A stretch of 35,339 bases of DNA from Patescibacteria group bacterium (GTDB taxonomy: Bacteria; Patescibacteriota; Microgenomatia; UBA8517): positions 750,522-785,860 of the forward strand of contig AP024680.1 of NCBI GenBank assembly GCA_025999275.1, written 5' to 3'. The translations under genes were made by a program, and so were the position numbers. How positions within the stretch are numbered: the stretch's first letter is position 1; each line of letters opens with the position of its first letter. Shown one piece after another: positions 10,577 to 25,794 of the stretch. The notes below the pieces were generated by a model, which was given only the letters and a program-made list of their open reading frames with translations, was not told the DNA's origin and did not search any database.

Positions 10577-10629
10577 GGTGTCAAGCTGTTTTTGGGGGAG
10601 GTGCCAAGCTAGGACACCCTTAGGGTGTA
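10577..10629 (-). repeat. REP copy 4 (right arm truncated)
   Basis: GGTGTCAAGCTgtttttgggggAGGTGCCAAGCTaggACACCCTTAGGGTGTAC, 6 nt from the RAYT TTG start. Confidence 0.85.
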
Positions 10630-10660
10630 CTTGATAATTGGTAAAAATATAATTAAGACC

Positions 10661-10669
10661 TGCTATAAT
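10661..10669 (+). promoter_or_regulatory. extended -10 promoter candidate TGcTATAAT
   Basis: Perfect TATAAT with an upstream TG. It ends 7 nt before the ATG at 10677. Confidence 0.35.
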
Positions 10670-10676
10670 CTAAGAA

Positions 10677-10862
10677 ATGGCAAAACGAAAAGTTGTTTTG
10701 GAAATCGAAGTTGATGAAACCAAAATATCCCCCGGCTGGGAAAAATACTTAGAGGAATTCTTCAAAAATTTAGATAATTCTATCATGCCAATCGGAAATG
10801 AAGCAAGAAAAGAAATAAAAATTAAAAAAATTGAAATAAAAAAATCTGATAAACTAATTTAA
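10677..10862 (+). CDS. small hypothetical protein (61 aa, Lys/Glu-rich)
   Basis: ORF directly downstream of a TGcTATAAT extended -10 motif (10661-10669). No similarity recognised. Confidence 0.35.
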   Translation: MAKRKVVLEIEVDETKISPGWEKYLEEFFKNLDNSIMPIGNEARKEIKIKKIEIKKSDKLI

Positions 10863-10872
10863 TCTAAATTAT

Positions 10873-11517
10873 ATGGATCGAAAAACAACACAAAATTCAC
10901 CCATCAAAATTGTTATCGGTATACCCTCAAACGGCTATATTCGAGCTGAAACAATAACTTCGCTGATTGAAGCTATTTCCTACCTTCAAGGTATAGAGGT
11001 GATTGTTTCCGCGCCAACCGGCTGTTATATTCACCAATTGCGTGAATATCTAGGCGAGCAATCTTTACAACTTCAAGCCACCCACCTAATGTTTATTGAC
11101 AGCGATATGACCTTTGAACCCCAAGGAATATTAAAGCTTCTAAAAGCCAAAAAACCAATTATCGGCGGAGATTATAATTATAAATTAACGCCAAAAATGT
11201 CAGTTACTAAAATTGACCCTGAAAAAATTGACAAAAAATATATCGAGGAAGATCCCAATTTTCCGGGATATCTAAGATTAAAAGAAGACAACCGACCCAA
11301 CTTTCCTTTTGAAGTTAAAGCCATTGCTACCGGCTTTATGCTGATTGAAACACAAGTATTTAAAAAAATAAAAAAACCCTGGTTTTGGTTTGATATTGAA
11401 AATGAAAAACTAGTTGGCGAGGATCTTTATTTTTGTCAAAAAGCAAAAAAAGAAAATATCAGCATTTGGTGTGAACCAACAATTAAAATTGGCCATTTAG
11501 GAATAAAAATTTATTAA
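10873..11517 (+). CDS. GT-A fold glycosyltransferase (family-2-like, DxD)
   Basis: 214 aa. N-terminal IVIGIPSNG Rossmann-like start, a DSD (DxD) motif in LMFIDSDMTF, and GEDLYFCQKAKK, a motif typical of GT2-like enzymes. Confidence 0.6.
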   Translation: MDRKTTQNSPIKIVIGIPSNGYIRAETITSLIEAISYLQGIEVIVSAPTGCYIHQLREYLGEQSLQLQATHLMFIDSDMTFEPQGILKLLKAKKPIIGGDYNYKLTPKMSVTKIDPEKIDKKYIEEDPNFPGYLRLKEDNRPNFPFEVKAIATGFMLIETQVFKKIKKPWFWFDIENEKLVGEDLYFCQKAKKENISIWCEPTIKIGHLGIKIY

Positions 11518-11522
11518 AAACT

Positions 11523-14324
11523 ATGCCGGCAATTAGAGATTGGTCATATAATTATCACTCAACCACAACTGCAACTACTATATACTGCCCTTTGCCCCAG
11601 TATCAACAAAATGATTTGCTTTTAGCAATTTTATCAACTGATACTGGTACGACTCAAGCCTGGTCAGCTACCGGCTGGACCCAGCTTTTTTCCCAATCAA
11701 ATACAGTAAATTTAGGAATAATGTATAAAATTGCCGGCGCTTCAGAGACAAATCCAACCTTTACCTATACTATTGCTGAAACTGCCAACGCAGCAATCTT
11801 AAGCATAATGGATGTTGATACCTCAACCCCAATTGCCAACTATGCCACTGCTAATGGCACAACTGCTAGATTTGCTATGCCAACAACCTCTGCCACCCGC
11901 AATAACTCTTTGATTATTTATTGTTCTGCTCATCCTTCAACTACTGTTATTCCCTCAATTATTGAAGGACCAGTAACGCAAATTACCTCAAAAGACGGCT
12001 CTGCTCATTCTGACTCAATTGCTTGGGGATTTCAACCAACTTCAGGAACTACTCCCAACAATGTCTATTGGTCAGTTTCTAGAACCACTTACACTTCAAA
12101 ACTGGCAACTATTGTCATTAACCCACCAGCAACCGGCGCCACAGTTGTTCCTACTTATTGCGCGGCTGACAACTCGGTTTATATTGACCCAATTCATGGA
12201 ACAACTGCCTTTCGCGGTAACACTGCCTGGGCTGGAACGGCTACAACTTATTTTACTTCACCTTTAGCTGACTTAACTTTAGCCAATACCACTGTTTCTA
12301 CCAAAACCGACTACGGCATAAATTCTTATCGCTCCTGCGGCGGTATGACCGGGCCAACTACTGCTACTAGTTCCTGGATGGGCGCAACTTTAGTGCTGGC
12401 TACTGCCAACAAACCAAATGTTACTGGTAAAAACATTCTTCTTCACGCCATGCCTCTTGTACCGGCTGATATTCAGACAGTTGATGGTGTAAATTTAGGT
12501 CGAGGCATTGCTGTTGGTATGTTTTCCTCGGCTAATAATGCCAAAACTTATCATGTTCATGGCGCTGGAACCTCCTGGGGTATAAATCGCGCGCCTGTAA
12601 TTATTAATGAAAGCTATAGCGGTCCGGGCTTAATTGATTCCCGCGGCACTTTTGACCCAACTTCAGTTTTAGGTTTTGCTTGTTTTACTTCAGGCTTTTT
12701 GATTTCTTCTGACTGGGTTTGGTCAATGATCTGGATGCTTGATACGACTGTCGTCGCCGGCGGCAATGCCAACAATCCTATTGATGTAGGTGGTATCAGA
12801 GTGGCAGCGGCTGATGGTCATGAAAGAATGAGCGTTATTCAGCAGGGAAAAAATGAGCTTTTGGTGCTTCAGCCGCTGCAGTTTGGTGATGGCGGCACTA
12901 ACCCGACTTATTTATATCTTGACTCCACTTCAATTGAGTTTCCTGAGATTTATAACCGCACTACCCGTCAGGTCTATTATTGTTCTGCAGACAATGTCGC
13001 TGGTTTAACCTATTATGCCGGCCCAAGCGATACAATAATTCACAGAAATTCAATTGTCTCCTCTGCCTCGCCTTATCACTTTAGGCTTCACGCCTCTTCT
13101 TCAACCTCAGCCACTTATGATTTTTCTGGTTTATCAATTATCGGCGCAGGTCAAATTGTTTTAAATAAAGCAATTACTCTTTCTCAAATAACAATCAATA
13201 AGTACCAAAGCTTAGATGTTAGCAATTTAACTTTAAATAACAGCTCAATCTTAAACCCGCCAAATTCCAACAACTCAATCACTGTTAACTCCTCAACAAC
13301 ATTTAACTCCTGTGATTTCAATGTCACGACCCTTTCTGCCGGCAATTATCTTTTATCAACCACTACTCCTAATAAATTTTCAAACTGCTATTTTACTGGC
13401 TCAACCTCATCTGGTCATGCAATAAGAATTACTGCTGCCGGTACTTATAGTTTTTCTGGTAATATTTTCTCTGGCTTTGGAAATGATGAAACCACATCAG
13501 CGGCAATTTTTAATGATTCAGGCGGCCTAGTGACTTTAAACATTACTGGTGGCGGAAATACCCCAACAGTTAGAAATGGCACTGGCGCCTCAACAGTAAT
13601 TGCAAACGCAGTAACTTTATCAGTAACGGTTAAAAACGAGGCCGGCTCACCTATTCAAAACGCTCGCGTCTCAATCCAAAAAACTGCCAGCAACTCTTTA
13701 ACCGGCGCTTTGCTATGGAATGGCTCAACCTACACCAATGAAACCACAGCTGCCAATGATGCGACTGCCAATGATATGACTCTTCTTCGTTCATCTCCAG
13801 CTGTAAATGACGCTTATTATTTTGGCGGCAAAGAACCTTTTTACAAATTAAGAATAAATATTGGGACAGCTGGATCTGGCACTTGGACAATCACTTGGGA
13901 ATACTACAACGGTTCAACCTGGAGCGCAATTCCTGATGTCAACGACCCAACTAACGGCTTTAGAAATGGAACTGGAAATAAAGATATAACCTTTTCTCCA
14001 CCATCAAATTGGGCGTCAACTTCTATAAATGGAATTCCGGCTTTTTGGATAAGAGCAAGGATTTCAAGCTTCACCAGCATCACCACCCAGCCTAAGGGCA
14101 CACAGGCTTGGGTCTATTTGCAAATTATGAACCAACTCACCAATTCAAGCGGGATTGCAAGCAAAAGCTATAACTACACTTCAGATGAAGATGTCTATAT
14201 AATCATAAGAAAATCAAGCGCCGGAGACACAAAATATTATCCTGTTAACACCCAGCAACAGATAACAAGCTCCGGGCTATCACTAACTTGGACATTAATC
14301 CAAGACACCATCGCCTCAGCCTAA
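11523..14324 (+). CDS. large Ser/Thr/Asn-rich beta-helix-like protein, no signal peptide (candidate fibre / glycosylation substrate)
   Basis: 933-aa ORF starting 6 nt after the GT gene. Short beta-helix-style repeats are present (NLTLNNSSI, ITVNSSTTF, IRITAAGTYSFSGNIF), plus an Ig-like stretch (VTLSVTVKNEAGSPIQNARVSI). No TM or RR motif. Confidence 0.75.
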   Translation: MPAIRDWSYNYHSTTTATTIYCPLPQYQQNDLLLAILSTDTGTTQAWSATGWTQLFSQSNTVNLGIMYKIAGASETNPTFTYTIAETANAAILSIMDVDTSTPIANYATANGTTARFAMPTTSATRNNSLIIYCSAHPSTTVIPSIIEGPVTQITSKDGSAHSDSIAWGFQPTSGTTPNNVYWSVSRTTYTSKLATIVINPPATGATVVPTYCAADNSVYIDPIHGTTAFRGNTAWAGTATTYFTSPLADLTLANTTVSTKTDYGINSYRSCGGMTGPTTATSSWMGATLVLATANKPNVTGKNILLHAMPLVPADIQTVDGVNLGRGIAVGMFSSANNAKTYHVHGAGTSWGINRAPVIINESYSGPGLIDSRGTFDPTSVLGFACFTSGFLISSDWVWSMIWMLDTTVVAGGNANNPIDVGGIRVAAADGHERMSVIQQGKNELLVLQPLQFGDGGTNPTYLYLDSTSIEFPEIYNRTTRQVYYCSADNVAGLTYYAGPSDTIIHRNSIVSSASPYHFRLHASSSTSATYDFSGLSIIGAGQIVLNKAITLSQITINKYQSLDVSNLTLNNSSILNPPNSNNSITVNSSTTFNSCDFNVTTLSAGNYLLSTTTPNKFSNCYFTGSTSSGHAIRITAAGTYSFSGNIFSGFGNDETTSAAIFNDSGGLVTLNITGGGNTPTVRNGTGASTVIANAVTLSVTVKNEAGSPIQNARVSIQKTASNSLTGALLWNGSTYTNETTAANDATANDMTLLRSSPAVNDAYYFGGKEPFYKLRINIGTAGSGTWTITWEYYNGSTWSAIPDVNDPTNGFRNGTGNKDITFSPPSNWASTSINGIPAFWIRARISSFTSITTQPKGTQAWVYLQIMNQLTNSSGIASKSYNYTSDEDVYIIIRKSSAGDTKYYPVNTQQQITSSGLSLTWTLIQDTIASA

Positions 14325-14335
14325 CCTCTTGTTTT

Positions 14336-14393
14336 ACCTTGCCACCCTAAGGGTGTCTTAGGTTGACACCTTCCCCAAAAATAGCTTGACACC
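14336..14393 (+). repeat. REP copy 5
   Basis: accttGCCACCCTAAGGGTGTcttAGGTTGACACCTTccccaaaaatAGCTTGACACC, 12 nt after the stop of the 933-aa gene. Confidence 0.85.
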
Positions 14394-14404
14394 TGAATAG
14401 GTTA

Positions 14405-14522: not shown

Positions 14523-14623
14523 ATCTTATTCATAAATCTTAAATCTTAATTCCTTTCCCCTTACTACTATCTTCCTTTTCCCTCTTGCTCAACAAAGCCA
14601 AATGTAGAATAATCACAAAAGAA

Positions 14624-16741
14624 ATGAACAAGACTAAAAAGGCAGGAGAGATTCTAAATCAGGGGGCAAAACTTCTAGCTGAAGGCAAGGCAAAACAGGC
14701 AATTACCCTTTTTAAGAAATCAATCAATCTTGATGATAAAATCGTTGCCGCTCACTTTGACTTAGCCTTGGCCTATATGCAGACTGGTGATGAACTCTCA
14801 GCCATCGAGTCGCTCAAAAAAACCACCAAGCTAAAACCCGATGACTTTGAAGCTTTTAATCTCCTTGGGCACCTTTATATGAATCAAAAAATGGTTGATC
14901 TTGCTCTTCCCTGCTTTCTTAAAGCAACAAAAATCAACCCAATGATGGCAGAAGCCCATTACAATCTTGGCGTTGCCTATATGCAAAAGAAGATGTTTGA
15001 CAAGGCGCTTTCTGCCTACAAAAAAAGCTTAAAAGTCTTTCCCAACAACTCAATTGTTTTTAACAACATCGGTGTTGTTTATGAAGATATGGGAAATCCT
15101 CAAAAAGCGCTTGAATATTTCAAAAAAGCAATCAAAGTGAACCCACAAAATGCCACCGCCCTGCAGAACATAGGCGCATACTATATTAAGATAGACCCCA
15201 AAAAATCCAAAGAGTATTTTGAAAAAGCCACCAAAATTGAAAAAAATTCAGATAACGCATTCTTTAATCTTGGCGTTGCTCTAAGGCTGACTGGAGACAC
15301 TGAAGGCTCAATTGCCGCCTTCGAAAAATCACTCAAGCTAAATCCAAACAACCAAATCACCTACGGCCAGCTTTACCATCAACTTCGCGATATAGTCGAC
15401 TTTAAGAAAGCCAAAAAATTGGAAGGCAAGATGAGATCTCTTTCTGATAAAAACCTGAAAGAAGGCACCTTGCCTGCTGAAACCATCTTTGTTTCTGTAA
15501 TCTACGATGATAACCCAAAAAGAAACCTGGAAATCGCCAAGGCCTGGAGCCGCTACATTGAAGAAAAAGTCGCGCCATTCAAAAGAAACTACATCTTTGC
15601 CAAAAAGAAAAAGAAAGAGAAAATCAAAATTGGATACCTTTCAAACGACTTCAAAGATCACGCCACAAGCCACCTCTTAATGGGAGTCTTAAGAGAACAC
15701 AACAGATCAAAGTTTGAAATTTATGCCTATTCCTATTCAGAAAATGATAAAAGTTACTATCGAAAAGAGATTGAGAAACTAACCAAATTCAGAGACATTC
15801 TCACGCTTTCAGATCAAGAAGCAGCAGACTTAATCTACAAGGATAAAATTGATATTCTAGTTGATCTAAAAGGCCATACTACAAACTCAAGGCTTGAAAT
15901 AGCCGCTCTAAGGCCGGCTCCTGTCCAAATTCATTACCTTGGCTTCCCCGGATCTGTGGGAGCAGATTTTATTGACTACTTCATCACTGACAAAATCCTA
16001 ACCCCACCAAAACTAAGGCCCTATTTTAGCGAAAAACTAATTTATATGCCCCACTCATACCAAGCAAACGACAACAAACAAAAAATACTAAAAAGTCTTT
16101 CCTCAAGAAAGCAGTTTGGCCTGCCCGAAGACGCATTCCTTTTTGCCTCTTTTAACCAGCCTTATAAAATTACAGAAGACGCGCTTGATGCATGGTCTAC
16201 CATTCTTAAGAAAGCCCCAAAAAGCGCCATCTTGTTCTTGGCAAAAAACCAAACGCAGGTTAAAAATATAACCTCAGAATTCAGAAAAAGGAAAATAGAT
16301 GTCTCAAGAATATTCTTTAGCCTCCCCATTAAAAAATCGGCTCACCTGGCAAGACTTTCCCTATGTGATGCCGCCCTTGACACTTTTATCTGCAACGGCC
16401 ATACAACCACATCCGATGCCCTATGGGCAGGAATTCCTGTGATTACCCTTTTGGGAAAGCATTTTGCCTCAAGAGTCAGCGCCAGCCTTCTTTGCGCTCT
16501 TGGGGTGCCCGAGCTTATCACCAAAACAAAAGAGGAATACATAAATCTTGCCGTCTCCCTTGCTAAAGATACCCAGAAAGCAAAAGAGATAAAAGAGAAA
16601 ATCAAAGCAAATCGTCTTAAAGAGCCTCTCTTTGACACCACTAGATTTACAAGAAACCTAGAAAAAGCTTACATTAAAGTCTGGGAAAATTATCTTTCAG
16701 GCAAAAAACCAAGAGATTTTGTCATCAAAGATGAAAATTGA
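14624..16741 (+). CDS. TPR-repeat protein O-GlcNAc-transferase-like glycosyltransferase (GT41, SPINDLY family), paralogue 1
   Basis: About 8-9 N-terminal TPR units. The C-terminal half aligns by eye with the OGT catalytic domain (GYLSNDFKDHATSHL, ALRPAPVQIHYLGFPGS, FASFNQPYKI, CNGHTTTSDALWAGIPV, ASRVSASLL). The ATG at 14624 is preferred over the track TTG at 14585. Confidence 0.9.
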   Translation: MNKTKKAGEILNQGAKLLAEGKAKQAITLFKKSINLDDKIVAAHFDLALAYMQTGDELSAIESLKKTTKLKPDDFEAFNLLGHLYMNQKMVDLALPCFLKATKINPMMAEAHYNLGVAYMQKKMFDKALSAYKKSLKVFPNNSIVFNNIGVVYEDMGNPQKALEYFKKAIKVNPQNATALQNIGAYYIKIDPKKSKEYFEKATKIEKNSDNAFFNLGVALRLTGDTEGSIAAFEKSLKLNPNNQITYGQLYHQLRDIVDFKKAKKLEGKMRSLSDKNLKEGTLPAETIFVSVIYDDNPKRNLEIAKAWSRYIEEKVAPFKRNYIFAKKKKKEKIKIGYLSNDFKDHATSHLLMGVLREHNRSKFEIYAYSYSENDKSYYRKEIEKLTKFRDILTLSDQEAADLIYKDKIDILVDLKGHTTNSRLEIAALRPAPVQIHYLGFPGSVGADFIDYFITDKILTPPKLRPYFSEKLIYMPHSYQANDNKQKILKSLSSRKQFGLPEDAFLFASFNQPYKITEDALDAWSTILKKAPKSAILFLAKNQTQVKNITSEFRKRKIDVSRIFFSLPIKKSAHLARLSLCDAALDTFICNGHTTTSDALWAGIPVITLLGKHFASRVSASLLCALGVPELITKTKEEYINLAVSLAKDTQKAKEIKEKIKANRLKEPLFDTTRFTRNLEKAYIKVWENYLSGKKPRDFVIKDEN

Positions 16742-19136: not shown

Positions 19137-19170
19137 TACACCCTAAGGGTGTCTTAGGTTGGCACCTTCC
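19130..19170 (+). repeat. REP copy 6 (hairpin only), overlapping the stop codon of OGT paralogue 2
   Basis: GGAAGGTGTCAAGCTAGtACACCCTAAGGGTGTcttAGGTTGGCACCTTCC. The TAG within AAGCTAG is the CDS stop (19134-19136). Confidence 0.9.
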
Positions 19171-19184
19171 TTACTAAATAATAG

Positions 19185-20033
19185 ATGAGGATCATTAATA
19201 ATAAATTTATCGCCGTCAAAAAGTGCCGATACGGTTATTTTGCCTACAACAAAAACGACCTTTTTGTTGGCCGCTCGCTTGATTTATATGGCGAGTGGAG
19301 TCAGCCTGAATTTGACCTGCTTGGAAAATTTATTAATCCCGGCGATATTGTTCTTGATATTGGCGCCTACATTGGCACCCACAGCGTCTTTTTTGCCAAG
19401 AAAGTCTCCCCCGGCGGCCTTGTTATTGCCATCGAGCCACAAAGAACAGCCTACAACCTTCTTAACACCAACATCAGCCTAAATGAGCTTCTAAACGTCA
19501 TTACCATTCACAAATTTGCCTCAAATATCCATCAAAAAATAACCGTTCCCCTTTTAAACCCCTATGTAAAACAAAACTTTGGTGCTATCAAAATCAGTAA
19601 ATTCAAAGAAGGAGAAATTGTCGAATCTGTTTTAATTGACGACTTTCATCTTTCAGGCTGTAATTTAATCAAGATTGACACCGAGGAAAACGAAGACAAA
19701 ATCATAGAAGGCGGGCTAAAAACAATAAAGAAATATAAACCAATAATTTATGTTGAAAACAATGAAATTCAAGATTCAGAAAGAATAATCAGCGCTATTA
19801 AAAAAATCGGCTATTTCCCCTACTGGCACATCTTCTCCTATTTTAACCCCAACAATTTCTTTAAAAATCCAAAAAATGTATTTTCAAAATTTGGCCCTGA
19901 GGCAAATATGATTTGCTTTCCAAAAACGCCAAACAAACTTCCAGCAAATTTAATAGAAGTAGCAGGGCTAAAAGACAACTGGGAAAAAGCAAGAGAAAGG
20001 CTTACCTTGCCAAGAAAAGACAAAAAGATATAA
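19185..20033 (+). CDS. FkbM-family SAM-dependent methyltransferase
   Basis: 282 aa. VLDIGAYIGTHSVFFAK...VIAIEP matches the SAM-binding motif of the FkbM family, and the IKIDTEE motif is also present. Confidence 0.8.
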   Translation: MRIINNKFIAVKKCRYGYFAYNKNDLFVGRSLDLYGEWSQPEFDLLGKFINPGDIVLDIGAYIGTHSVFFAKKVSPGGLVIAIEPQRTAYNLLNTNISLNELLNVITIHKFASNIHQKITVPLLNPYVKQNFGAIKISKFKEGEIVESVLIDDFHLSGCNLIKIDTEENEDKIIEGGLKTIKKYKPIIYVENNEIQDSERIISAIKKIGYFPYWHIFSYFNPNNFFKNPKNVFSKFGPEANMICFPKTPNKLPANLIEVAGLKDNWEKARERLTLPRKDKKI

Positions 20034-20041: not shown

Positions 20042-20560
20042 ATGAAAATTACAGACATCAATGGAATTCAAAGGGATTGTCTAAAGGTTACTTCAGATCC
20101 AGCTTACCCCGGATTTGTCAAGGTTGACTATATGCCTCACTTTAGAAAAGGAGACATTTATAGCGAATGGTATCCAATTGATCAATTCCTTGAGAAAAAT
20201 CCGGAATTTAAAAAAGTATTCGCAAAAACCAAAATCCAAGAAGACTTAGGAGTTGTTGGCTATGCCTCAAGTCTAACTCTGGTTGATCGAACCAAAAAAT
20301 GGGAAACAAATGTCTTCAAAGACATAACAGTTTGGATATCAAGAGGAAAAGGCGAAGGACAAACAAGAAAAATCGTCTCAAACAGCGAGGACACACTCAT
20401 AATAGATAAACCTTGGAAAGTAGTGCCCGATAAAACTTCACAATATGTAATTTCAAACAATGTCAACGACCCGCAAGTTCTTGGAAACACCCTGCCTGAG
20501 GTCAAAGAAGAAAAGAAAAGAAAAAAGAAAAAACTTGACTTAAAAATAGTTGTAGATTAA
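20042..20560 (+). CDS. hypothetical protein with Lys-rich C-terminal tail
   Basis: The track ORF starts at 19913 but overlaps the FkbM gene. The in-frame ATG at 20042 (MKITDING) lies 8 nt after the FkbM stop and is the likely start. Confidence 0.55.
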   Translation: MKITDINGIQRDCLKVTSDPAYPGFVKVDYMPHFRKGDIYSEWYPIDQFLEKNPEFKKVFAKTKIQEDLGVVGYASSLTLVDRTKKWETNVFKDITVWISRGKGEGQTRKIVSNSEDTLIIDKPWKVVPDKTSQYVISNNVNDPQVLGNTLPEVKEEKKRKKKKLDLKIVVD

Positions 20561-20569
20561 ATTAAAGAC

Positions 20570-21055
20570 ATGCAAATCACCAACCTCTTTAAGAAAAAAG
20601 AAGAAACAAAGGAAGAAAAATCAGCACCATTTACTCCTGTCAAAGTTCCTCCAAGAGATAAAAAAGGCAGATTCTTGCCTAAAAAAGAAAATAAAGAAAA
20701 AACAAAAGAAAAAAAGGAAGAAAAACCAGAAATTTTAAGCGTCACCTTCTTTGGCAAAGAAGTTAGAAAAGCCTACGCAGGTGGAAAATGGTATTTTGCC
20801 ATTGATGATATTTATAACATTGCCTACCCGCCAAAAGAAGGAGAAGTGGTCAAGACCACCGAAGAGTTTGAAAAGATTAAAAAAGAGGTAACTAAAGAAT
20901 TTGAAGGCATTCTATTTGCAGAAGCAGAAGGAATCAAAAAATTAATCGAGGAAATAAAAGGGGTTTTCCCCGGTCCTTTCACCCGCTGGCTTGATGAATC
21001 AGCCCAACTTCCATTTGTTCCACCACCCAAAGAGGAGAAAAAAGAAAATGAATAA
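20570..21055 (+). CDS. hypothetical protein: Lys/Glu-rich N-terminus plus weak Bro-N/KilA-N-like segment
   Basis: 161 aa. VTFFGKEVRKAYAGGKWYFAIDDIYNIAY resembles the F-x-F...R...WF..D....LGY pattern of Bro-N DNA-binding domains (weak, from memory). Confidence 0.45.
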   Translation: MQITNLFKKKEETKEEKSAPFTPVKVPPRDKKGRFLPKKENKEKTKEKKEEKPEILSVTFFGKEVRKAYAGGKWYFAIDDIYNIAYPPKEGEVVKTTEEFEKIKKEVTKEFEGILFAEAEGIKKLIEEIKGVFPGPFTRWLDESAQLPFVPPPKEEKKENE

Positions 21056-21338
21056 AAAAGTAAGATATATCCCCACACAAAATCCCGATCCTTTGGAAAA
21101 AATCCATTATGTCTGTAGTGGTGGCTGTGGTTTTGTGTCAAACACTCCCGGCAAATGCTACACCGCAGGCTGCTACCGCTATCGAAATCCGTTAACTGAG
21201 TGTCGATGTAAAGACGGATTACACCAGGACATTATTACCAGAAATGTAGATAAAGATCTCCCTCTTCCCCCAAATACTACTCTCAAAGCTGTCCCGATCT
21301 CAAAAACCAAAAAATCAGCGACAAAAAGTAAAAAATAA
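21048..21338 (+). CDS. small Cys-rich (6 Cys) zinc-ribbon-like protein with basic tail
   Basis: The in-frame ATG at 21048 (MNKKVRY) overlaps the upstream stop by 8 nt. The motif is HYVCSGGCGFVSNTPGKCYTAGCYRYRNPLTECRC. Confidence 0.5.
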   Translation: MNKKVRYIPTQNPDPLEKIHYVCSGGCGFVSNTPGKCYTAGCYRYRNPLTECRCKDGLHQDIITRNVDKDLPLPPNTTLKAVPISKTKKSATKSKK

Positions 21339-21413: not shown

Positions 21414-21441
21414 GGTTTAGACGGCAATCTTTTAATAATTT

Positions 21442-23478
21442 ATGGCTATATCAGACGACTTTACCATCGATTATGTAAATAAGAGGATTTATCATTCCTC
21501 AGGAACTACTATCTACACTGTAAACGCACTCTATTCTTATCTTCAGAACACTTTTGACGAACCAGAGCAAATGGATGATCCAATCCCGATGTCTGCCCAG
21601 ACTCCTACTGAGTATACCTTAATTAATGGCTGGTTCATGAACGAGGCAAGAGAGGGCTCCCCTTCCCGAAATTGCTTTGAATTTCTCAAAGGCGGAGCTA
21701 TAAAAACAGATGGTCAAAATGGAGAAATTCAAATATTAACACTTAATTCATCCGGTTATACCAATGCTGTTGTTTCAGATATAGGAAAAATTGTAAAAGA
21801 CGATGGGGCTGACACTGGTCCCCTTCTTGACTATGATAATACCAATCGCAAGTGGTGGATAAGGGCCTCAAGCACAATTGCAAGTGGCTCAGCTATAACA
21901 ATTACAAGCGGAACTGGAGCTGGAACTGCAGCTGCCAATTCAGCAACAGGAGAACAACTTTGGGCAAACATTTACACTCTTGGATCCATCGAGGAGGATT
22001 TGTCAGCTCCATCTGGGCAAAAACAGCAAATCTATATTGAACAGAACGGATCTCGTATATTTTCAGGTACAGAATGGTGGCCTGAAGGCGGAGAGTCAGC
22101 AACCACAAGGCATATTGATATACTCCTTAAAGTAAAAGAGGCTAGCCAGGAAATTGACGGAGCCCAAATTACAGTCTTCTTGCGCCATTATCAAAGCCAA
22201 CCCACTGAATCTAACCCCGCAGATCTTTACGACCACTTTAGCATTGACCTTTCCTCAGGTGGACGAAACGCTGTCCCTCTTGCTACCGCAAACGACCTTA
22301 ACAATACATCTTATCAGTCAACTGTATCAGGTTACAACGACATAACCATTGCTTTTGTTAATGGAACCATTAGCTATAGTGCAATAAATGGATCATTCCC
22401 TAGCTTCCAAACAGTAACTGGAAGTTCATCGGGTGCGACTGGAATTGTCCTAAAGCAAACCACAACTTCAGGAGCAGGAACTTTGACCTTGGGAAATGTA
22501 GTTGGAACCTTTCAAAATGGCGAGTCTATTTCAGGAGGTGGGGTTTCTGCCACCTCCTCCTCAACCTTAACCGAGGCTTACAAAATGCCAAAGAACTTCG
22601 AGCAGGGTTCAGAGTATAACTATTCTGTTATTATAGACTGCGCTGGAAGGCCGCTATCTCAGGTCTATGAATACCTAAAGTATGTAACAAGAATCGGCTC
22701 AACTTTCACCATGTACCCCACCATCTACCCACAAGGCGGTCCCCTTTCACACACCACCAAACAAGGACAACTTTATATTAGGGCCCATGAAGATACTCAA
22801 ACCACACCCACAAATACATTCTCCCCCGTTAAGGCCTCTCCTTTTGGAACTTTTGCAGGAGGTAAATTCTTCGGCGCCCAAGGTATCTGGATTGAAAATA
22901 TGGCAGCTTCTGATATTCAGAACTTTCAGCTTATTGATTCTGATGGCTCAACCAGGACTCCTCCCAACAAGCAGTCAATCACAATTACCAACCTTCTTTC
23001 AGATGACCGCGTGGCAGTATTTAGAACCACATCAGGAACAACTATCAACAAGGCAATGTACACAGCAGGAGCTGGAAATAATAGTGGCAATACCACCTTT
23101 GTAGTAAATGAGAGCATTGCCGTTGATACACCAGCATCAGGAGTTATTAGAATTGTTGACACATCAGACAACACAAACACGCGAGAAACAAGGTACACTT
23201 ATACAAGCTGGTCTGGCTCAACATTCTCCGGTCTATCTCCGGCTTTAAACAGAAACTACACACAAACGGAAGATACTGCCTATGTTCCATTTATTGACAC
23301 AACAGCAAGCGGCACTTCGGTTTCAGTTACCGTCATTTACACTACAGATAGAACAATTCTGGTCCGCGTAAGAAGATATACCCCAACTGCTATTTTGCCT
23401 TTTGAAACAACTGGAACATTTGGATCCACAGGTTATGCAACCAGTGCTATAAGAACTGTCGATTCAATTGTCAGCTAA
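21442..23478 (+). CDS. large Ser/Thr/Gly-rich protein, no signal peptide (fibre/virion-like)
   Basis: 678-aa ORF downstream of TTGACA-18-TATACT (21384-21413). No TM or signal peptide. The composition is like the 933-aa protein. Confidence 0.75.
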   Translation: MAISDDFTIDYVNKRIYHSSGTTIYTVNALYSYLQNTFDEPEQMDDPIPMSAQTPTEYTLINGWFMNEAREGSPSRNCFEFLKGGAIKTDGQNGEIQILTLNSSGYTNAVVSDIGKIVKDDGADTGPLLDYDNTNRKWWIRASSTIASGSAITITSGTGAGTAAANSATGEQLWANIYTLGSIEEDLSAPSGQKQQIYIEQNGSRIFSGTEWWPEGGESATTRHIDILLKVKEASQEIDGAQITVFLRHYQSQPTESNPADLYDHFSIDLSSGGRNAVPLATANDLNNTSYQSTVSGYNDITIAFVNGTISYSAINGSFPSFQTVTGSSSGATGIVLKQTTTSGAGTLTLGNVVGTFQNGESISGGGVSATSSSTLTEAYKMPKNFEQGSEYNYSVIIDCAGRPLSQVYEYLKYVTRIGSTFTMYPTIYPQGGPLSHTTKQGQLYIRAHEDTQTTPTNTFSPVKASPFGTFAGGKFFGAQGIWIENMAASDIQNFQLIDSDGSTRTPPNKQSITITNLLSDDRVAVFRTTSGTTINKAMYTAGAGNNSGNTTFVVNESIAVDTPASGVIRIVDTSDNTNTRETRYTYTSWSGSTFSGLSPALNRNYTQTEDTAYVPFIDTTASGTSVSVTVIYTTDRTILVRVRRYTPTAILPFETTGTFGSTGYATSAIRTVDSIVS

Positions 23479-24431
23479 TGTCTGACCTAATTAATTACTT
23501 TATCTCCAATGAAGGAAGCCTTGATAATGCAAGCCTTGAATTTGACAAGCTTGTAAACTACCTCTCAACCCTTGAAAACTTCAGGGTGCAAATAGACAAT
23601 CAAAAAGCTTCTCTTTTTTGTTTTGAATCAGGGAAACAGTCTTTTCTTGCCTTTAGAGAAAAGGCAACTTCCGACTCAATCTTCAACAACCAAATAGTCT
23701 ATTCTTGTGAACAAAACGATTGGCAAAGCACAAAAAGCCTAAACAAAGCAATAAAAGAATACGGATACCGCCTTTTTAACCCAGCCCTTGGCTTCTTTTT
23801 AACCAACAATGAAAACTTAACTGATCTTTATAACACCATTGTTGAAGAAAAATTAAAAAAAATATTTAGAAAATTTGGGCTAGTTCCTCTTTTTAAGTAT
23901 GAAAACAGCCTTGTTTATTATGCTCAAGACATAAAAAATAAGTCTGTAAACCTTGTTAACCGCCACCTTCTTGAATTTCTGCTATCTCAGGAGGAAATAT
24001 TTGGTAGAAAAGAAGACTTTTCTGTTAAAGTAGCTGATGATATTCCAAGATTCATCGCCCTTTTTGACCGCGGGTTAATCCCAATTTCTTTTTATAAGAC
24101 CGCTTCAAGCAAAAGCAATGTGATTAATCTAAGCGGTATTGATCTTGAAGAAACAAAAGAAAAAATAATTGTCACACCTGTTTTTTTTGAATTTGTCCCC
24201 TCAAAACAAGCCTTTAGAAACTCTCCCAAAACTCCTTTTATAAAAGAAAATCTAATCCCCAAAGGCGGATCAATCAAAGATTATCTAAAAGCAATAAACG
24301 AAGGATCTTTCTTTAAAGGTAAAATTATATCTGTTAAAGTAGGCCACGATATTGCTTTTGAAACCGACAGGCAAAAAAATCCTATTCCAAGAATAACTGT
24401 TAGTATATTTTTAGATGAACAAAATGATTAA
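23478..24431 (+). CDS. hypothetical protein (317 aa)
   Basis: Its start overlaps the upstream stop (TAATG), which implies translational coupling. No family recognised. Confidence 0.65.
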   Translation: MSDLINYFISNEGSLDNASLEFDKLVNYLSTLENFRVQIDNQKASLFCFESGKQSFLAFREKATSDSIFNNQIVYSCEQNDWQSTKSLNKAIKEYGYRLFNPALGFFLTNNENLTDLYNTIVEEKLKKIFRKFGLVPLFKYENSLVYYAQDIKNKSVNLVNRHLLEFLLSQEEIFGRKEDFSVKVADDIPRFIALFDRGLIPISFYKTASSKSNVINLSGIDLEETKEKIIVTPVFFEFVPSKQAFRNSPKTPFIKENLIPKGGSIKDYLKAINEGSFFKGKIISVKVGHDIAFETDRQKNPIPRITVSIFLDEQND

Positions 24432-24439
24432 AATAAACT

Positions 24440-25738
24440 ATGGCTACACTAACTTTTCTAAAATACGACAAAGTAATCCAAGTTGATGCCCCACAAGTTG
24501 AGGTAACAATACAGGATTTAATCAACCAAATACGCGACTACGAAGATGAACTTGAAAATATGGATATTGAAAAGATCGCCGACGCCTACGGAAAGCAGCC
24601 ACTTGGAACCAACGAATTCATAGGTATTACTCTGGTCCTTGTTAATGACTGGAGAATTGCATTTGAAGCAAGACCGGGACCTGATACTGTTACCTGCTAT
24701 GTAAGAGGTGGAAATTTGGTTGCTGAGAATATTTATGACAATAACCCAATCAAACCAACTGCTTTTACCCAGGTTGTCATTGCCCAATCATCATCACCCA
24801 CAATTATTAGAGCTGAGTCTGATTATGGAGCTTTGTTTTTAATCGAATCATTAAGAGGAAAACATGCTTCTTTGGGAAATATATTTTACTGGAATCCAAT
24901 TTCAGGAAGTGACAGCAACAGCGGAACAAGTCCTCAGACAGCAGTTAAGACCTTTGACAAGGCCCAATCTCTTGCCACAGTCGGAAATCATGACATCATC
25001 TTTGCCATATCAACTGATCCATCAGGAGTAACAACAGTCACCACTCCCATAAGCATCACCAAATCAACTTTAAAACTTCGTGGACCAGGCTTCCCCTTTC
25101 AGTTTGCCCCAACAACAGCCGGTAGCCCAACAATTCAAATTGCCGCTGACGGAGTCGAGCTTTCAGGATTTTATGTTACCACCGCAAGCGGCGGATCTGA
25201 TAATGGAATTGAAATTTCAGGAGACAATGTTTTAATCAAAGACTGCTGGGTAAGTGGTGCCAGTGCAAATGGAATTTATGTTACCAACGCTTCAAGAACC
25301 CAAATTGACACCTGCGCAATTGAAGACTGCGGCCTAAATGGAATTTTGCTTTCAAGTTCAACAGCGCTATCAACTATCAAAAAATGCATAATCACCGGAA
25401 ATCAAAACGGCGTTTCCCTTTCGGGAACAAATATTAACGATAATATTTTTGAAACTAACTTAATCTATAATAACACAGGCACGGGAATTAATATTGGAAC
25501 AGGAGTCTTAAGAACTGGAATAAGACTGCTTCATACCTTTGCCGGAAATGCAGTCAATATACAAGACCTTGGCACAGGTACATTCCAGGACACTTCAGGA
25601 ACAATTACTCAAGGAGATATCGATGCCATTGTAGATGGCGTTTGGGATGAGATAATTGGTACCCATACTACCCCAGGCTCTGCAGGCAAGACGCTTAAAG
25701 ACGCAAAAACCAAAGCCACTCTTGCTTCGCTGAAGTAA
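24440..25738 (+). CDS. right-handed parallel beta-helix repeat protein (pectate-lyase/NosD-like fold), tail-fibre-like N- and C-termini
   Basis: 432 aa. Beta-helix repeats are present (GIEISGDNVLIKDCWVSGASANGIYVTNASRTQIDTCAIEDCGLNGILLSSS...ITGNQNGVSLSG...NNTGTGINIG). No signal peptide. A REP follows at 25744. Confidence 0.8.
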   Translation: MATLTFLKYDKVIQVDAPQVEVTIQDLINQIRDYEDELENMDIEKIADAYGKQPLGTNEFIGITLVLVNDWRIAFEARPGPDTVTCYVRGGNLVAENIYDNNPIKPTAFTQVVIAQSSSPTIIRAESDYGALFLIESLRGKHASLGNIFYWNPISGSDSNSGTSPQTAVKTFDKAQSLATVGNHDIIFAISTDPSGVTTVTTPISITKSTLKLRGPGFPFQFAPTTAGSPTIQIAADGVELSGFYVTTASGGSDNGIEISGDNVLIKDCWVSGASANGIYVTNASRTQIDTCAIEDCGLNGILLSSSTALSTIKKCIITGNQNGVSLSGTNINDNIFETNLIYNNTGTGINIGTGVLRTGIRLLHTFAGNAVNIQDLGTGTFQDTSGTITQGDIDAIVDGVWDEIIGTHTTPGSAGKTLKDAKTKATLASLK

Positions 25739-25743
25739 TATTT

Positions 25744-25794
25744 GGAAGGTGCCAAGCTAGTCCACCCTAAGGGTGTTTTAGGTTGGCACCTTCC
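25744..25794 (+). repeat. REP copy 7 (hairpin only)
   Basis: GGAAGGTGCCAAGCTagtCCACCCTAAGGGTGTtttAGGTTGGCACCTTCC, 6 nt after the stop of 24440..25738. Confidence 0.9.

What the first reader, a model, noticed from the sequence alone, without database searches (positions are those of the whole stretch)
10577..25794. REP-punctuated 15-kb island pairing cytoplasmic glycosyl- and methyl-transferases with signal-less Ser/Thr-rich fibre-like proteins (candidate undescribed system)
Three co-directional gene blocks, each ended by a REP (14336, 19130, 25744), make up the island. Block (i) holds a small ORF, a GT-A glycosyltransferase and a 933-aa S/T/N-rich beta-helix-like protein. Block (ii) holds two tandem TPR-GT41 OGT-type enzymes. 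Block (iii) holds an FkbM methyltransferase followed by six tightly packed ORFs. These include 678-aa and 432-aa S/T/G-rich proteins, and the 432-aa protein is a clear parallel beta-helix. None of the four large proteins shows a signal peptide, TM helix or RR motif, so they remain accessible to cytoplasmic GT41 enzymes, whose TPR arms classically select protein substrates. A GT41 enzyme next to a beta-helix adhesin is the logic of HMW1C/HMW1. A TPR-glycosyltransferase next to its filament substrate is the logic of FlmG/flagellin. To my knowledge the present combination is not a described system: two OGT, GT-A and FkbM with phage-fibre-like proteins, directly upstream of a Tat cluster that exports folded proteins. 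Bacterial OGT substrates are largely unknown, so physical linkage to candidate substrates would be valuable.
Basis: partly seen in the sequence, partly recalled or inferred. Interest (0 to 1): 0.75.

Follow-up and report, generated by a model that had tools for sequence, protein, structure and literature searches.

The report
Phage-fibre-like locus with OGT glycosyltransferases
A small uncultured bacterium of the Microgenomates (CPR) group keeps three proteins resembling phage tail fibres or tailspikes at a fixed chromosomal site next to its Tat export genes, and in this lineage OGT-type sugar-adding enzymes and a methyltransferase are wired into the same gene cluster, which names concrete candidate substrates for bacterial OGT enzymes but proves no modification.

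Summary
Two TPR-GT41 proteins match human OGT (E 3e-132) and keep the catalytic Lys and His. FkbM is confirmed. The "GT-A" is only weakly supported. The REPs are real but occur window-wide and belong to a RAYT at 9878-10570.

The large signal-less proteins are relatives of phage receptor-binding proteins. The 933-aa model (pLDDT 86) matches an uncultured Caudovirales protein over its full length. Relatives of the 678-aa protein sit in IMG/VR contigs and beside a Baseplate_J gene. The first 125 residues of the 432-aa beta-helix protein form an anchor domain shared with phage genes that follow 678-like genes.

This is not a prophage. I found no capsid, portal, terminase or integrase. The 678/432 pair lies just upstream of tatA/tatC-prsW in dozens of Microgenomates species, and the 678-aa protein is the best conserved protein there.

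GT41 genes are absent from most such loci (about 9 of 60). Where present they are embedded in about a dozen different arrangements, and orthologues of this GT41 are nearly always found with fibre genes.

Best reading: a domesticated phage-fibre locus with an accessory cytoplasmic glycosylation/methylation cassette. Modification, export and Tat involvement are untested.

The parts
9878..10570 (-). REP-associated tyrosine transposase (RAYT), flanked by REPs. It explains the REPs and is not part of the fibre system.
   Evidence: Pfam Y1_Tnp E 1e-9. REPs at 9796-9825 and 10599-10628.
10576..10631 (.). REP copy at the left edge of block (i).
10677..10862 (+). 61-aa Lys/Glu-rich ORF, function unknown. 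A 49%-identical ORF lies near an o214-like gene in L113.
10873..11517 (+). 214-aa phage-type small protein, probably a GT-A glycosyltransferase (DSD motif). It recurs next to 933-like genes in L113, L114 and L111.
   Evidence: phrog_1574 E 3e-30 and PHROG glycosyltransferase 3e-4. PDB 2c0n STIV A197 E 0.006. 108 phage records hit.
11523..14324 (+). 933-aa tailspike-like protein with N-terminal jelly-rolls, a right-handed beta-helix and C-terminal beta-sandwiches. No signal peptide.
   Evidence: AF2 pLDDT 85.8, pTM 0.76. Foldseek BFVD full-length match to an uncultured Caudovirales protein, E 8e-52, TM 0.62, plus many minor tail proteins. PDB hits to GH87 glucanase, Kp7 tail fibre and CBA120 TSP4. 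251 homologues.
14335..14396 (.). REP copy, followed by a composite heptamer-repeat spacer up to 14584.
14585..16741 (+). TPR + GT41 OGT-type glycosyltransferase a. The database protein starts at residue 14, about 14624.
   Evidence: Pfam Glyco_transf_41 E 2e-102. Human OGT E 3e-132; Int-D absent; catalytic Lys (FNQPYK) and His (DFKDH) aligned. P0269.
16719..19136 (+). TPR + GT41 OGT-type glycosyltransferase b, with a longer TPR arm.
   Evidence: Pfam E 7e-97 with 9 TPR stretches. The motifs DFYDH and FNQSYK are present in the sequence.
19120..19180 (.). REP copy between GT41b and FkbM.
19185..20033 (+). FkbM-family SAM methyltransferase, 12 nt upstream of the fibre operon.
   Evidence: Pfam PF05050 E 2e-13. 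TIGR01444 E 2e-21. The same position is seen in L113, L006, L110 and the P0343 contig.
20045..20560 (+). 171-aa conserved small cytoplasmic protein (o215), function unknown. It accompanies the locus in about 22 genomes.
20570..21055 (+). 161-aa Lys/Glu-rich protein (o161), function unknown.
20991..21338 (+). Small Cys-rich protein (o115; the likely start is near 21048). It lies immediately upstream of the 678-like gene in about 20 genomes.
21442..23478 (+). 678-aa all-beta Ser/Thr/Gly-rich protein. It is the conserved core of the locus and belongs to an uncharacterised modular family shared with phage tail modules.
   Evidence: >1000 homologues at 57-95% identity over the full length. 1073 clusters at 50% identity, with modular architecture. 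IMG/VR relatives. Baseplate_J and tail-fibre neighbours in L027 and L081. Median 67% identity against 46% for TatC.
23478..24431 (+). 317-aa protein, function unknown. It occurs only with the 'type B' version of the locus, which marks the window as a mosaic.
24440..25738 (+). 432-aa tailspike-like protein: an N-terminal anchor domain (1-125) shared with phage genes that follow 678-like genes, a right-handed beta-helix insert, and a conserved C-terminal tail.
   Evidence: Pfam Beta_helix E 8e-14 and NosD. Alignment A3.
25744..25792 (.). REP copy after the last fibre gene.
25859..27290 (+). tatA, tatA and tatC. They are a conserved downstream neighbour, and a functional link is unproven.
   Evidence: Pfam. 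In 34 of 35 genome loci tat lies within 4 kb of the 432-like gene.

Best explanation
The region is the local version of a chromosomal 'fibre locus' that is conserved in position but variable in content across Microgenomates (CPR bacteria).

Its core is a set of proteins derived from, or shared with, phage receptor-binding modules:
- a highly conserved 678-aa all-beta protein;
- a 432-aa protein made of a phage-type N-terminal anchor domain plus a beta-helix;
- one or more large variable tailspike-like proteins, here the 933-aa jelly-roll + beta-helix protein.

The core sits among envelope genes, directly upstream of tatA/tatC-prsW.

In this lineage the locus has acquired an accessory modification cassette. 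It comprises two catalytically intact TPR-GT41 (OGT-type) glycosyltransferases, an FkbM methyltransferase translationally packed onto the fibre operon, and a phage-type GT-A-like protein in front of the 933-aa gene.

Proposed mechanism:
1. The signal-less, Ser/Thr-rich fibre proteins fold in the cytoplasm.
2. The TPR arms of the GT41 enzymes recruit them.
3. They are O-glycosylated on Ser/Thr. FkbM methylates the sugar or the protein, and the GT-A possibly extends the glycan.
4. They are then deployed as oligomeric fibres or adhesins on the cell, or on a particle.

Shown here: gene content, enzyme family and catalytic motifs, homology to phage tail-module proteins, the conserved chromosomal position, and recurrent embedding of GT41/FkbM in the locus.

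Inferred: that these proteins are the GT41 substrates, the nature of the sugar, oligomerisation, surface localisation and the export route.
For: Phage-RBP nature of the large proteins:
- o933 model pLDDT 85.8. Full-length BFVD match E 8e-52, TM 0.62, and many minor tail or tail proteins. PDB tail-fibre and tailspike hits.
- 21 IMG/VR contigs carry 678-like genes followed by a gene with the o432 N-domain, with o933-like pieces upstream.
- Neighbours are PHROG tail fibre/tail spike families in L081 and Baseplate_J in L027.

Not a prophage, and conserved:
- No capsid, portal, terminase or integrase in 35 kb. The flanks are Wzy_C/TPR, M23/LysM, SH3_3, dCache, Tat, PrsW, Fic and Rho.
- An o432-like gene follows the o678-like gene in 63 of 80 loci, and tat lies within 4 kb in 34 of 35.
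- o678 has median 67% identity, against 46% for TatC, 34% for PrsW and 37% for SH3_869 in the same genomes.

Enzymes: GT41a against human OGT gives E 3e-132 with the catalytic Lys and His aligned.

Linkage of the modification genes:
- The identical architecture is seen in L113.
- GT41a-GT41b-FkbM-...-678-432 is seen in L006 and L110, and GT41-FkbM-...-678-432-tat on the P0343 contig at 42% identity.
- Other arrangements: 678-GT41-GT41-432 in L020; five tandem GT41 genes before 678-like/317/432 in L057; GT41 x3 + FkbM after 678-like in L055; GT41 next to o933 in L114 and L111.
- L082 shows independent coupling of FkbM, GT2, GT4 and GDP-mannose dehydratase to the o933C/678 pair.

Precedent: TPR-GT41 Ogt next to pilA is required for PilA glycosylation (PMC9306852).
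Against: - No modification is demonstrated.
- Most species-level loci lack GT41 within 10 kb (about 51 of 60), so the fibres do not need it.
- The Ser+Thr content of 678 homologues is the same with and without linked GT41.
- One GT41a orthologue (L109, 52% identity) has no fibre gene within -10/+6 kb.
- I could not measure the background density of GT41 genes in these genomes, and many linked loci are phylogenetically related. Part of the association may therefore be inherited synteny.
- The neighbourhood also holds envelope genes (Wzy_C-like, SH3_3 proteins) that could be the real targets.
- There is no export signal and no identified exporter.
- The 678-aa model is poor (pLDDT 66) with no fold match, so its fibre nature rests on context.
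Confidence: 0.5

Rival explanations
1. Envelope super-locus with unrelated targets. The GT41 pair, FkbM and the GT-A-like protein modify something else, such as pilins, an S-layer or SH3-domain wall proteins, or a polysaccharide. They lie near the fibre genes only because gene order in this part of the small Microgenomates chromosome is conserved.
For: - The flanks are envelope genes: a Wzy_C/TPR protein, an M23/LysM peptidase, SH3_3 membrane proteins, dCache and PrsW.
- Most fibre loci lack GT41.
- L109 has the GT41 orthologue without fibre genes nearby.
- Extra GT4 genes occur in L003 and L113.
- The known bacterial OGT target is a pilin (PMC9306852).
Against: - GT41 genes are found between, before and after the fibre genes in about a dozen different arrangements and orientations, across Roizman-, Woese- and Amesbacteria-type genomes.
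- FkbM is 12 nt from the fibre operon here and in the same position in three other lineages.
- L114 keeps GT41 with o933 even where 678/432 are absent.
- L082 couples FkbM and GT genes to the same fibre pair in a viral contig.
Confidence: 0.25
2. Decaying prophage or tail-fibre remnant. The large proteins are leftovers of an integrated phage's host-recognition module, and the OGT genes are coincidental neighbours.
For: - Relatives occur in IMG/VR contigs and next to Baseplate_J and tail-fibre genes.
- BFVD gives phage matches.
- The fibre proteins differ in composition from their neighbours: Lys 2-4% against 10-14%, and GC 0.44-0.455 against about 0.37.
- The locus is a mosaic of 'type A' 678 with 'type B' 317/432.
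- The variable slot collects mobile cargo: RAYT, AbiEii, AAA_14/DUF4143 and toxin-antitoxin genes.
- Roizmanbacteria prophages exist (PMC6509639).
Against: - The window has no capsid, portal, terminase, tape-measure or integrase gene.
- The locus holds the same chromosomal position upstream of tat in dozens of species-level genomes from several Microgenomates lineages.
- The 678-aa protein is intact, full length and the best conserved protein of the neighbourhood. That is the opposite of decay and of fast-evolving phage fibres.
Confidence: 0.12
3. Fibres supplied in trans to a phage-tail-like particle (a tailocin, a GTA-like agent or a resident phage) whose head and tail genes lie elsewhere in the genome. 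The glycosylation would decorate the particle's fibres.
For: - The anchor-domain logic (the o432 N-domain following 678-like genes in phages) implies attachment to a larger assembly.
- The proteins have no secretion signals, which fits release by lysis.
- From general knowledge, RcGTA encodes its head spikes and tail fibres away from the main cluster.
Against: I saw no tail tube, sheath or baseplate gene within 10 kb in any CPR locus examined with Pfam tables. Nothing is known of such particles in Microgenomates. I could not examine the rest of the genome.
Confidence: 0.08

Closest known systems
Cyanobacterial Ogt (TPR-GT41) and the pilin PilA (Synechococcus elongatus Synpcc7942_0051 next to pilA; Nostoc punctiforme OgtA), PMC9306852
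   Same: A signal-less cytoplasmic TPR + GT41 OGT homologue with the conserved catalytic Lys is encoded beside the gene for a surface-filament subunit, and it is required for that subunit's GlcNAc modification.
   Different: The candidate substrates here are large (432-933 aa) phage-RBP-like beta-helix/all-beta proteins without a prepilin or any other signal, not a 14-kDa type IV pilin. There are two (elsewhere up to five) GT41 paralogues plus FkbM and a GT-A-like protein. Nothing here has been tested experimentally.
HMW1C/HMW1 (Haemophilus influenzae) and related NGT-adhesin pairs
   Same: A GT41-family enzyme encoded next to a beta-helical adhesin that it glycosylates in the cytoplasm before export.
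   Different: HMW1C-type enzymes lack the TPR arm and N-glycosylate Asn. HMW1 has a Sec signal and a TPS domain and is exported by HMW1B. Here the enzymes are TPR-OGT type, and there is no signal, TPS domain or TpsB gene.
FlmG/flagellin and Maf/flagellin glycosylation islands (PMC7591256)
   Same: A TPR-containing cytoplasmic protein glycosyltransferase is encoded with its filament substrate. Ser/Thr O-glycosylation happens before export without a cleavable signal.
   Different: I detected no flagellin and no nonulosonic-acid pathway genes. The catalytic domain here is GT41.
Phage branched receptor-binding complexes (tailspikes with N-terminal anchor domains, e.g. CBA120 TSP1-4, Klebsiella phage tail fibres) and phage-encoded virion glycosylation
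   Same: Right-handed beta-helix tailspike-like proteins. A conserved N-terminal anchor domain is fused to exchangeable C-terminal modules. The gene order (large fibre, 678-like, anchor-domain protein) is shared with viral contigs. Sugar-modifying genes sit next to the fibre genes in L082.
   Different: In the window and in about 50 CPR genomes the module is chromosomal, at a fixed position, without virion genes, and its central protein is unusually conserved. The families have no PHROG or Pfam model and no cultured-phage homologue for 678 and 432.
Serine-rich-repeat adhesins with GtfA/GtfB and the accessory Sec system (Gram-positive cocci). This comparison is from general knowledge.
   Same: Cytoplasmic O-GlcNAc modification of Ser/Thr-rich adhesins by enzymes encoded in the same locus as a dedicated export system.
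   Different: The enzyme families differ (GT4/DUF1975), the substrates have long signal peptides, and the exporter is SecA2/SecY2. Here the neighbouring exporter is Tat, and no signal links it to the proteins.

Membership tests
GT41 / OGT-type O-glycosyltransferase | N-terminal TPR superhelix followed by the bipartite GT41 (GT-B) catalytic domain | tested here: met
   Pfam Glyco_transf_41 E 2e-102 and 7e-97 with multiple TPR hits. Human OGT E 3e-132, SPINDLY E 2e-92, XcOGT E 1e-55.
GT41 / OGT-type O-glycosyltransferase | Catalytic lysine (hOGT K842 in FNQLYK) and active-site histidine (hOGT H498 in DFGNH) | tested here: met
   GT41a aligns FNQPYK and DFKDH to the human motifs. GT41b carries FNQSYK and DFYDH in its sequence. 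I assigned the residue numbers from memory.
GT41 / OGT-type O-glycosyltransferase | Transfer of a sugar (GlcNAc or fucose) to Ser/Thr of protein substrates | not testable with these tools
   Needs enzymology or mass spectrometry.
HMW1C/HMW1-type adhesin glycosylation | TPR-less HMW1C-type GT41, and a substrate with a Sec signal and TPS domain exported by a TpsB partner | tested here: not met
   The enzymes carry 4-9 TPRs. There are no signal or hydrophobic segments in the large proteins. No TpsB/POTRA gene is in the window.
FlmG or Maf flagellin glycosylation system | Flagellin substrate and nonulosonic-acid biosynthesis genes in the locus | tested here: not met
   No flagellin or Pse/Leg pathway Pfam hit among the 30 window proteins scanned.
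Phage tailspike / tail-fibre (receptor-binding protein) | Right-handed parallel beta-helix or fibre fold with structural similarity to known phage RBPs | tested here: met
   o432: Pfam Beta_helix E 8e-14. o933: AF2 pLDDT 85.8, with Foldseek hits to the Kp7 tail fibre, CBA120 TSP4 and K2-2 TSP, and a full-length BFVD Caudovirales match at E 8e-52. For o678 the result is inconclusive: pLDDT 66 and no significant match.
Phage tailspike / tail-fibre (receptor-binding protein) | Encoded in a virion tail module (baseplate, tail and fibre genes adjacent) | tested here: not met
   Met only in distant relatives: L027 Baseplate_J, L081 tail-fibre PHROGs and the IMG/VR contigs. It is not met in the window or in the CPR loci inspected.
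Phage tailspike / tail-fibre (receptor-binding protein) | Homotrimeric assembly and receptor binding or depolymerase activity | not tested
   No multimer prediction tool or assay was available.
Prophage | Integrase, terminase, portal and major capsid genes | tested here: not met
   None among all window ORFs of 80 aa or more scanned with Pfam, PHROGs and NCBIfam.
Tat substrate | N-terminal twin-arginine signal (S/T-R-R-x-F-L-K plus a hydrophobic region) | tested here: not met
   A regex plus hydrophobicity scan of all window ORFs of 60 aa or more found only a spurious antisense ORF. No dedicated predictor was available.
FkbM methyltransferase family | Methyltransf_21 / TIGR01444 SAM-dependent methyltransferase domain | tested here: met
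   PF05050 E 2e-13. TIGR01444 E 2e-21, above the cut-off.
GT-A glycosyltransferase (the 214-aa protein) | GT-A Rossmann-like fold with a DxD motif and a match to a GT family model | tested here: inconclusive
   No Pfam or NCBIfam hit. phrog_1574 (unknown function) E 3e-30, PHROG glycosyltransferase 3e-4. STIV A197 GT-A E 0.006 over 62 residues. A DSD motif is present. One phage homologue is annotated as a putative glycosyltransferase.
REP/RAYT system | Palindromic REP copies in intergenic regions plus a Y1 (IS200-like) transposase flanked by REPs | tested here: met
   9 core copies against 0 expected. Y1_Tnp at 9878-10570 between two REPs.

The most novel reading that the evidence does not exclude
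Microgenomates have domesticated a phage receptor-binding module into a vertically inherited cell-surface attachment fibre. The conserved 678-aa protein would act as a hub carrying exchangeable tailspike-like heads. In some lineages the fibre would be O-glycosylated and methylated in the cytoplasm by dedicated OGT paralogues, and it would leave the cell fully folded through the adjacent Tat system by hitch-hiking on an unidentified signal-bearing partner. That would be a previously unknown host-contact organelle of CPR episymbionts, and the first defined multi-protein substrate set for bacterial OGTs.
Probability: 0.12. Interest if true: 0.85.

Novelty: new variant of a known kind. Interest (0 to 1): 0.6.

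Why it matters
Few substrates of bacterial OGT homologues are known. This locus offers three specific, clonable candidates per genome. It also offers natural comparison sets: the same fibre locus with and without GT41/FkbM, and with one to five GT41 paralogues.

Separately, the 678/432 pair is an unannotated family (no Pfam, PHROG or PDB relative). It is more conserved than TatC across Microgenomates and is shared with phage tail modules. If it is a surface fibre, it is a candidate host-attachment structure for a large group of uncultured episymbionts. It would also be an example of a phage receptor-binding module domesticated without the rest of the tail.

Tried and rejected
- Sequence searches against the PDB with single proteins and with profiles of the 678, 933 and 432-N families, and with o317 and o215, gave nothing.
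- The AF2 model of the 678-aa protein was poor (pLDDT 66). Its Foldseek PDB search gave no significant hit; the best were phage Chi and lambda tail-tip proteins at E 5e-3, probability 0.2. I do not use these as evidence.
- PHROGs gave nothing for 678, 933, 432, or ten stand-alone anchor-domain proteins.
- Pfam on the neighbours of the viral contig L085 was uninformative.
- The single metagenome scan with GT41a was wasted on low-complexity patterns: 5 irrelevant loci.
- GenBank phages have no 678 or 432 relative and only a 106-residue match for 933.
- Rfam gave no hit in the window.
- Literature searches for a description of this locus in CPR/Patescibacteria found none.
- I considered and rejected a REP-bounded genomic island, because the REPs are window-wide.
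- I rejected an intact prophage, because no virion or integration genes are present.
- I rejected a Tat-substrate assignment, because there are no RR signals.
- I tested whether a Ser/Thr enrichment of 678 homologues tracks GT41 presence. It does not.

Full report
OBSERVATION. The ORF map matches the finding.
- Block (i) holds a 61-aa ORF, a 214-aa ORF and a 933-aa ORF (10677-14324).
- Block (ii) holds two TPR + GT41 proteins (14585-19136; Pfam Glyco_transf_41 E 2e-102 and 7e-97).
- Block (iii) holds an FkbM methyltransferase (19185-20033; PF05050, TIGR01444) and six tightly packed ORFs ending with the 678-, 317- and 432-aa proteins. The 432-aa protein hits Pfam Beta_helix (E 8e-14).

The 933-, 678- and 432-aa proteins contain 19-25% Ser+Thr and only 2-4% Lys, against 10-14% Lys in their neighbours. 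They show no hydrophobic segment or RR motif in a simple scan. TatA, TatA and TatC follow.

The REPs are real. The core CACCCTWAGGGTG occurs 9 times against 0 expected. Five of the nine copies lie outside the region, and a Y1 transposase (RAYT) sits at 9878-10570 between two copies. The REPs are therefore a genome-wide intergenic feature, not island borders.

The 'GT-A' assignment of the 214-aa protein is only weakly supported. It matches phrog_1574 (unknown function) at E 3e-30, a PHROG glycosyltransferase family at 3e-4, and the STIV A197 GT-A at E 0.006. It has a DSD motif and homologues in 108 phage records.

ORGANISM AND SETTING. Homologues of nearly every protein come from Roizman-, Shapiro-, Woese-, Levy-, Ames- and Gottesmanbacteria MAGs, so the window is from a Microgenomates (CPR) chromosome. 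The rest of the window encodes a Wzy_C/TPR membrane protein, an M23/LysM peptidase, SH3_3 membrane proteins, a dCache protein, PrsW, a large SH3_3 protein with a signal peptide, a Fic/HTH protein and Rho. There is no capsid, portal, terminase, tape-measure or integrase gene.

WHAT THE LARGE PROTEINS ARE.

The 678-aa protein:
- It has more than 1000 homologues, the top 120 being 57-95% identical over the full length, and none has a name or a Pfam domain.
- An exhaustive search finds 1073 clusters at 50% identity. The architecture is modular: an N-domain of about residues 1-310, a C-domain of about residues 457-677 and a variable middle. The domains are sometimes embedded in 2-4 kaa giants.
- Relatives at 29-48% identity occur in 21 IMG/VR viral contigs up to 183 kb. 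They also occur in non-CPR bacteria and archaea.
- In an Isosphaeraceae MAG the relative lies downstream of a Baseplate_J gene and a beta-helix protein. In the viral contig L081 its neighbours hit PHROG tail-fibre and tail-spike families.

The 432-aa protein:
- In those viral and non-CPR loci the gene after the 678-like gene encodes one of two things. It is either a 160-200-aa protein or a larger protein of unrelated C-terminus.
- In both cases the first 125 residues or so align with the N-terminus of the 432-aa protein. The short versions also share its C-terminal tail (VWDE..H..GSAGK.L..KATLASLK).
- The 432-aa protein is therefore a phage-type anchor domain with a beta-helix inserted.

The 933-aa protein:
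- It gave a confident AF2 model (pLDDT 85.8, pTM 0.76) with jelly-rolls, a right-handed beta-helix and C-terminal sandwiches.
- Foldseek finds a full-length match to an uncultured Caudovirales protein (E 8e-52, TM 0.62) and many phage minor-tail or tail proteins in BFVD.
- In the PDB it finds GH87 glucanases, the Klebsiella phage Kp7 tail fibre, CBA120 TSP4 and the HFTV1 turret.
- Pieces of it occur just upstream of 678-like genes in viral contigs.

All three proteins therefore belong to a phage receptor-binding module. For the 678-aa protein this rests on gene context, because its own model was poor (pLDDT 66) and matched nothing.

A CONSERVED CHROMOSOMAL LOCUS, NOT A PROPHAGE.
- In 80 loci from one genome per species, a 432-like gene follows the 678-like gene in 63. 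tatA/tatC are present in 44-46, prsW in 32 and the large SH3_3 protein in 36.
- Of the 35 loci that have a full-length 432-like gene and tat, 34 have tat within 4 kb.
- The small genes o215, o160, o161 and o115 accompany the locus in 20-30 genomes.
- Between them lies a variable slot. It holds 933-like or giant proteins (2813 aa in L001, 2280 aa in L112) and mobile cargo such as RAYT, AbiEii, AAA_14/DUF4143 and toxin-antitoxin genes.
- In the 17 genomes with the same 678 type, the 678-aa protein is the best conserved protein of the neighbourhood. Median identities are 67% for 678, 49% for 432, 46% for TatC, 34% for PrsW and 37% for SH3_869.
- The 317-aa gene occurs only where the 678-like protein is about 30% identical and the 432-like protein about 60% identical. 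The window is therefore a recombinant of two locus types.

A fixed position, variable content, mosaicism and one strongly constrained core protein are what one expects of a functional surface-structure locus. They are not what one expects of a decaying prophage.

THE MODIFICATION CASSETTE AND ITS LINKAGE. GT41a aligns with human OGT at E 3e-132 and lacks only the intervening domain. The catalytic Lys (FNQPYK) and the active-site His (DFKDH) are aligned. GT41b carries the same motifs.

Starting from the fibre locus, only about 9 of 60 CPR loci have a GT41 catalytic-domain ORF within 10 kb. The cassette is therefore accessory.

Starting from GT41a orthologues, the picture reverses:
- The whole architecture (o214-like, 933, GT41a, GT41b, FkbM, o215, o161, o115, 678, 317, 432) is repeated in L113.
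- GT41a-GT41b-FkbM-...-678-432-tat recurs in L006 and L110 (58-59% identity).
- GT41-FkbM-...-678-432-tat recurs on the P0343 contig at 42% identity.
- L108 and L111 carry 933-like genes (the latter with an o214-like gene) directly upstream of the GT41 pair.
- Only L109 lacks fibre genes nearby. L107 is truncated after GT41b, and it shows that block (i) can be absent: there the RAYT is followed directly by GT41a.

Other lineages embed GT41 differently:
- 678-GT41-GT41-432 in L020.
- Five tandem GT41 genes before 678-like/317/432/tat in L057.
- Three GT41 genes plus FkbM on the other strand after a 678-like gene in L055.
- One GT41 gene after 432 in L015.
- GT41 next to 933, with two more GT41 genes before tat, in L114, which lacks 678/432 altogether.

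A viral contig (L082) places GT4, GDP-mannose dehydratase, GT2, a B12-radical-SAM protein, GT4, FkbM and GT2 directly upstream of a 933C-like and a 678-like gene. FkbM is 12 nt from the first fibre-operon gene in the window. Association that survives this much rearrangement argues for a functional link. I could not correct for phylogeny or for the background number of GT41 genes per genome.

MECHANISM AND RIVALS.

Best-supported model (confidence about 0.5): the fibre proteins are made without signal peptides. In this lineage the TPR arms of the two OGT paralogues recruit them, and they are O-glycosylated on Ser/Thr in the cytoplasm. FkbM methylates the sugar or the protein, and the GT-A-like protein may act on the adjacent 933-aa protein. 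The fibres are then deployed as oligomers. Every enzymatic and localisation step is inferred.

Rivals:
- The enzymes serve other envelope targets and are neighbours through conserved synteny (about 0.25).
- The region is a prophage remnant with coincidental OGTs (about 0.12).
- The fibres are supplied in trans to a particle encoded elsewhere (about 0.08).

The Tat idea has only adjacency in its favour. I found no twin-arginine signal in any real ORF of the window. The Ser+Thr content of 678 homologues does not differ between GT41-linked and unlinked loci.

COMPARISON WITH KNOWN SYSTEMS.
- The closest published logic is cyanobacterial Ogt. This cytoplasmic TPR-GT41 enzyme is encoded beside pilA and is required for PilA GlcNAc modification, with a catalytic Lys mutant inactive (PMC9306852).
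- FlmG/flagellin (PMC7591256) and HMW1C/HMW1 share the idea of cytoplasmic glycosylation of a surface filament or adhesin by a neighbouring enzyme. Their defining features are not met here. These are a TPR-less N-glycosyltransferase with a TPS-exported substrate for HMW1C/HMW1, and flagellin with nonulosonic-acid genes for FlmG.
- On the substrate side the closest known things are phage branched receptor-binding complexes with anchor-domain tailspikes. The virion context that defines them is absent here.
- Roizmanbacteria phages and a prophage have been described (PMC6509639). I found no description of this locus.

VERDICT. This is a new variant of a known kind: a protein-glycosylation cassette beside the genes for a surface structure. 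It acts on an undescribed set of candidate substrates, namely phage-fibre-like proteins fixed in a CPR chromosome. Interest 0.6. The linkage is recurrent and gives a directly testable substrate hypothesis for bacterial OGTs. The conserved 678/432 pair is itself an unannotated, widespread family. Against that, no modification, localisation or export route is shown, and most fibre loci do without GT41.

Noticed in passing
window 9878-10570 (-), with REPs at 9796-9825 and 10599-10628: A RAYT (IS200-like Y1 transposase) is flanked by two REP copies, which is a REPtron-like arrangement. In the close relative L107 the RAYT is followed directly by GT41a, so block (i) (10677-14324) is a REP-flanked indel.
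   Followed up: partly
window 5035-5112, 14404-14522, 34110-34231, 35305-35335; 9700-9767, 26420-26470; 9496-9531, 27872-27923, 33922-33973; 34056-34102: Intergenic spacers contain tandem arrays of several different heptamers (AATTTTG, CTGATAG, CTTAAAT/GATTTAA, TTATGAA, AAGTCAA) next to REPs. Whole composite spacers of 100-200 nt are repeated, for example 4918-5127, 14343-14562 and, inverted, 34105-34305. This is reminiscent of cyanobacterial STRR heptamer repeats. Function unknown.
   Followed up: partly
window 5197-5285 and 28020-28108: An 89-nt repeat (85% identity) contains a perfect 10-12-bp hairpin (CTATCAATACATCGAT...ATTGATAG). The second copy folds much better than shuffles (z about -4). 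There is no Rfam match. One copy lies upstream of the SH3_3 gene pair and the other beyond the 3' end of the large SH3_3 gene.
   Followed up: partly
window 11523-14324, 21442-23478, 24440-25738: The three fibre-like proteins have 2-4% Lys against 10-14% in neighbouring proteins. Their genes have GC 0.44-0.455 against about 0.37 around them. This compositional contrast is compatible with foreign (phage) origin or with fold constraints.
   Followed up: no
L108:8103-8351 and L112:8484-8729: 81-82-aa ORFs correspond only to the N-terminus (residues 3-87) of the 678-aa protein and lie right after a 933-like or a 2280-aa giant protein. They may be remnants or a stand-alone docking peptide.
   Followed up: no
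L082:70-12193 (IMG/VR UViG_3300009034_002814): This viral contig carries a sugar-modification cassette (GT4, GDP-mannose 4,6-dehydratase, GT2, B12-radical SAM, GT4, FkbM, GT2) directly upstream of 933C-like and 678-like genes. The match length and identity resemble the Archaeoglobales MAG locus L023.
   Followed up: partly
window 25859-26071 and 26064-26216: Two tandem, slightly overlapping tatA genes lie upstream of tatC. Related genomes have three, sometimes with a further copy beyond the large SH3_3 gene.
   Followed up: no
window 31331-32284: A Fic/DeoR-HTH protein is conserved downstream of the large SH3_3 gene in about 15 related loci. It is part of the same long syntenic block.
   Followed up: no
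window 10873-11517: The 214-aa protein has homologues in 108 GenBank phage records, mostly Synechococcus and Prochlorococcus myophages (phrog_1574, no assigned function). A Methanobacteriales virus also carries one.
   Followed up: partly
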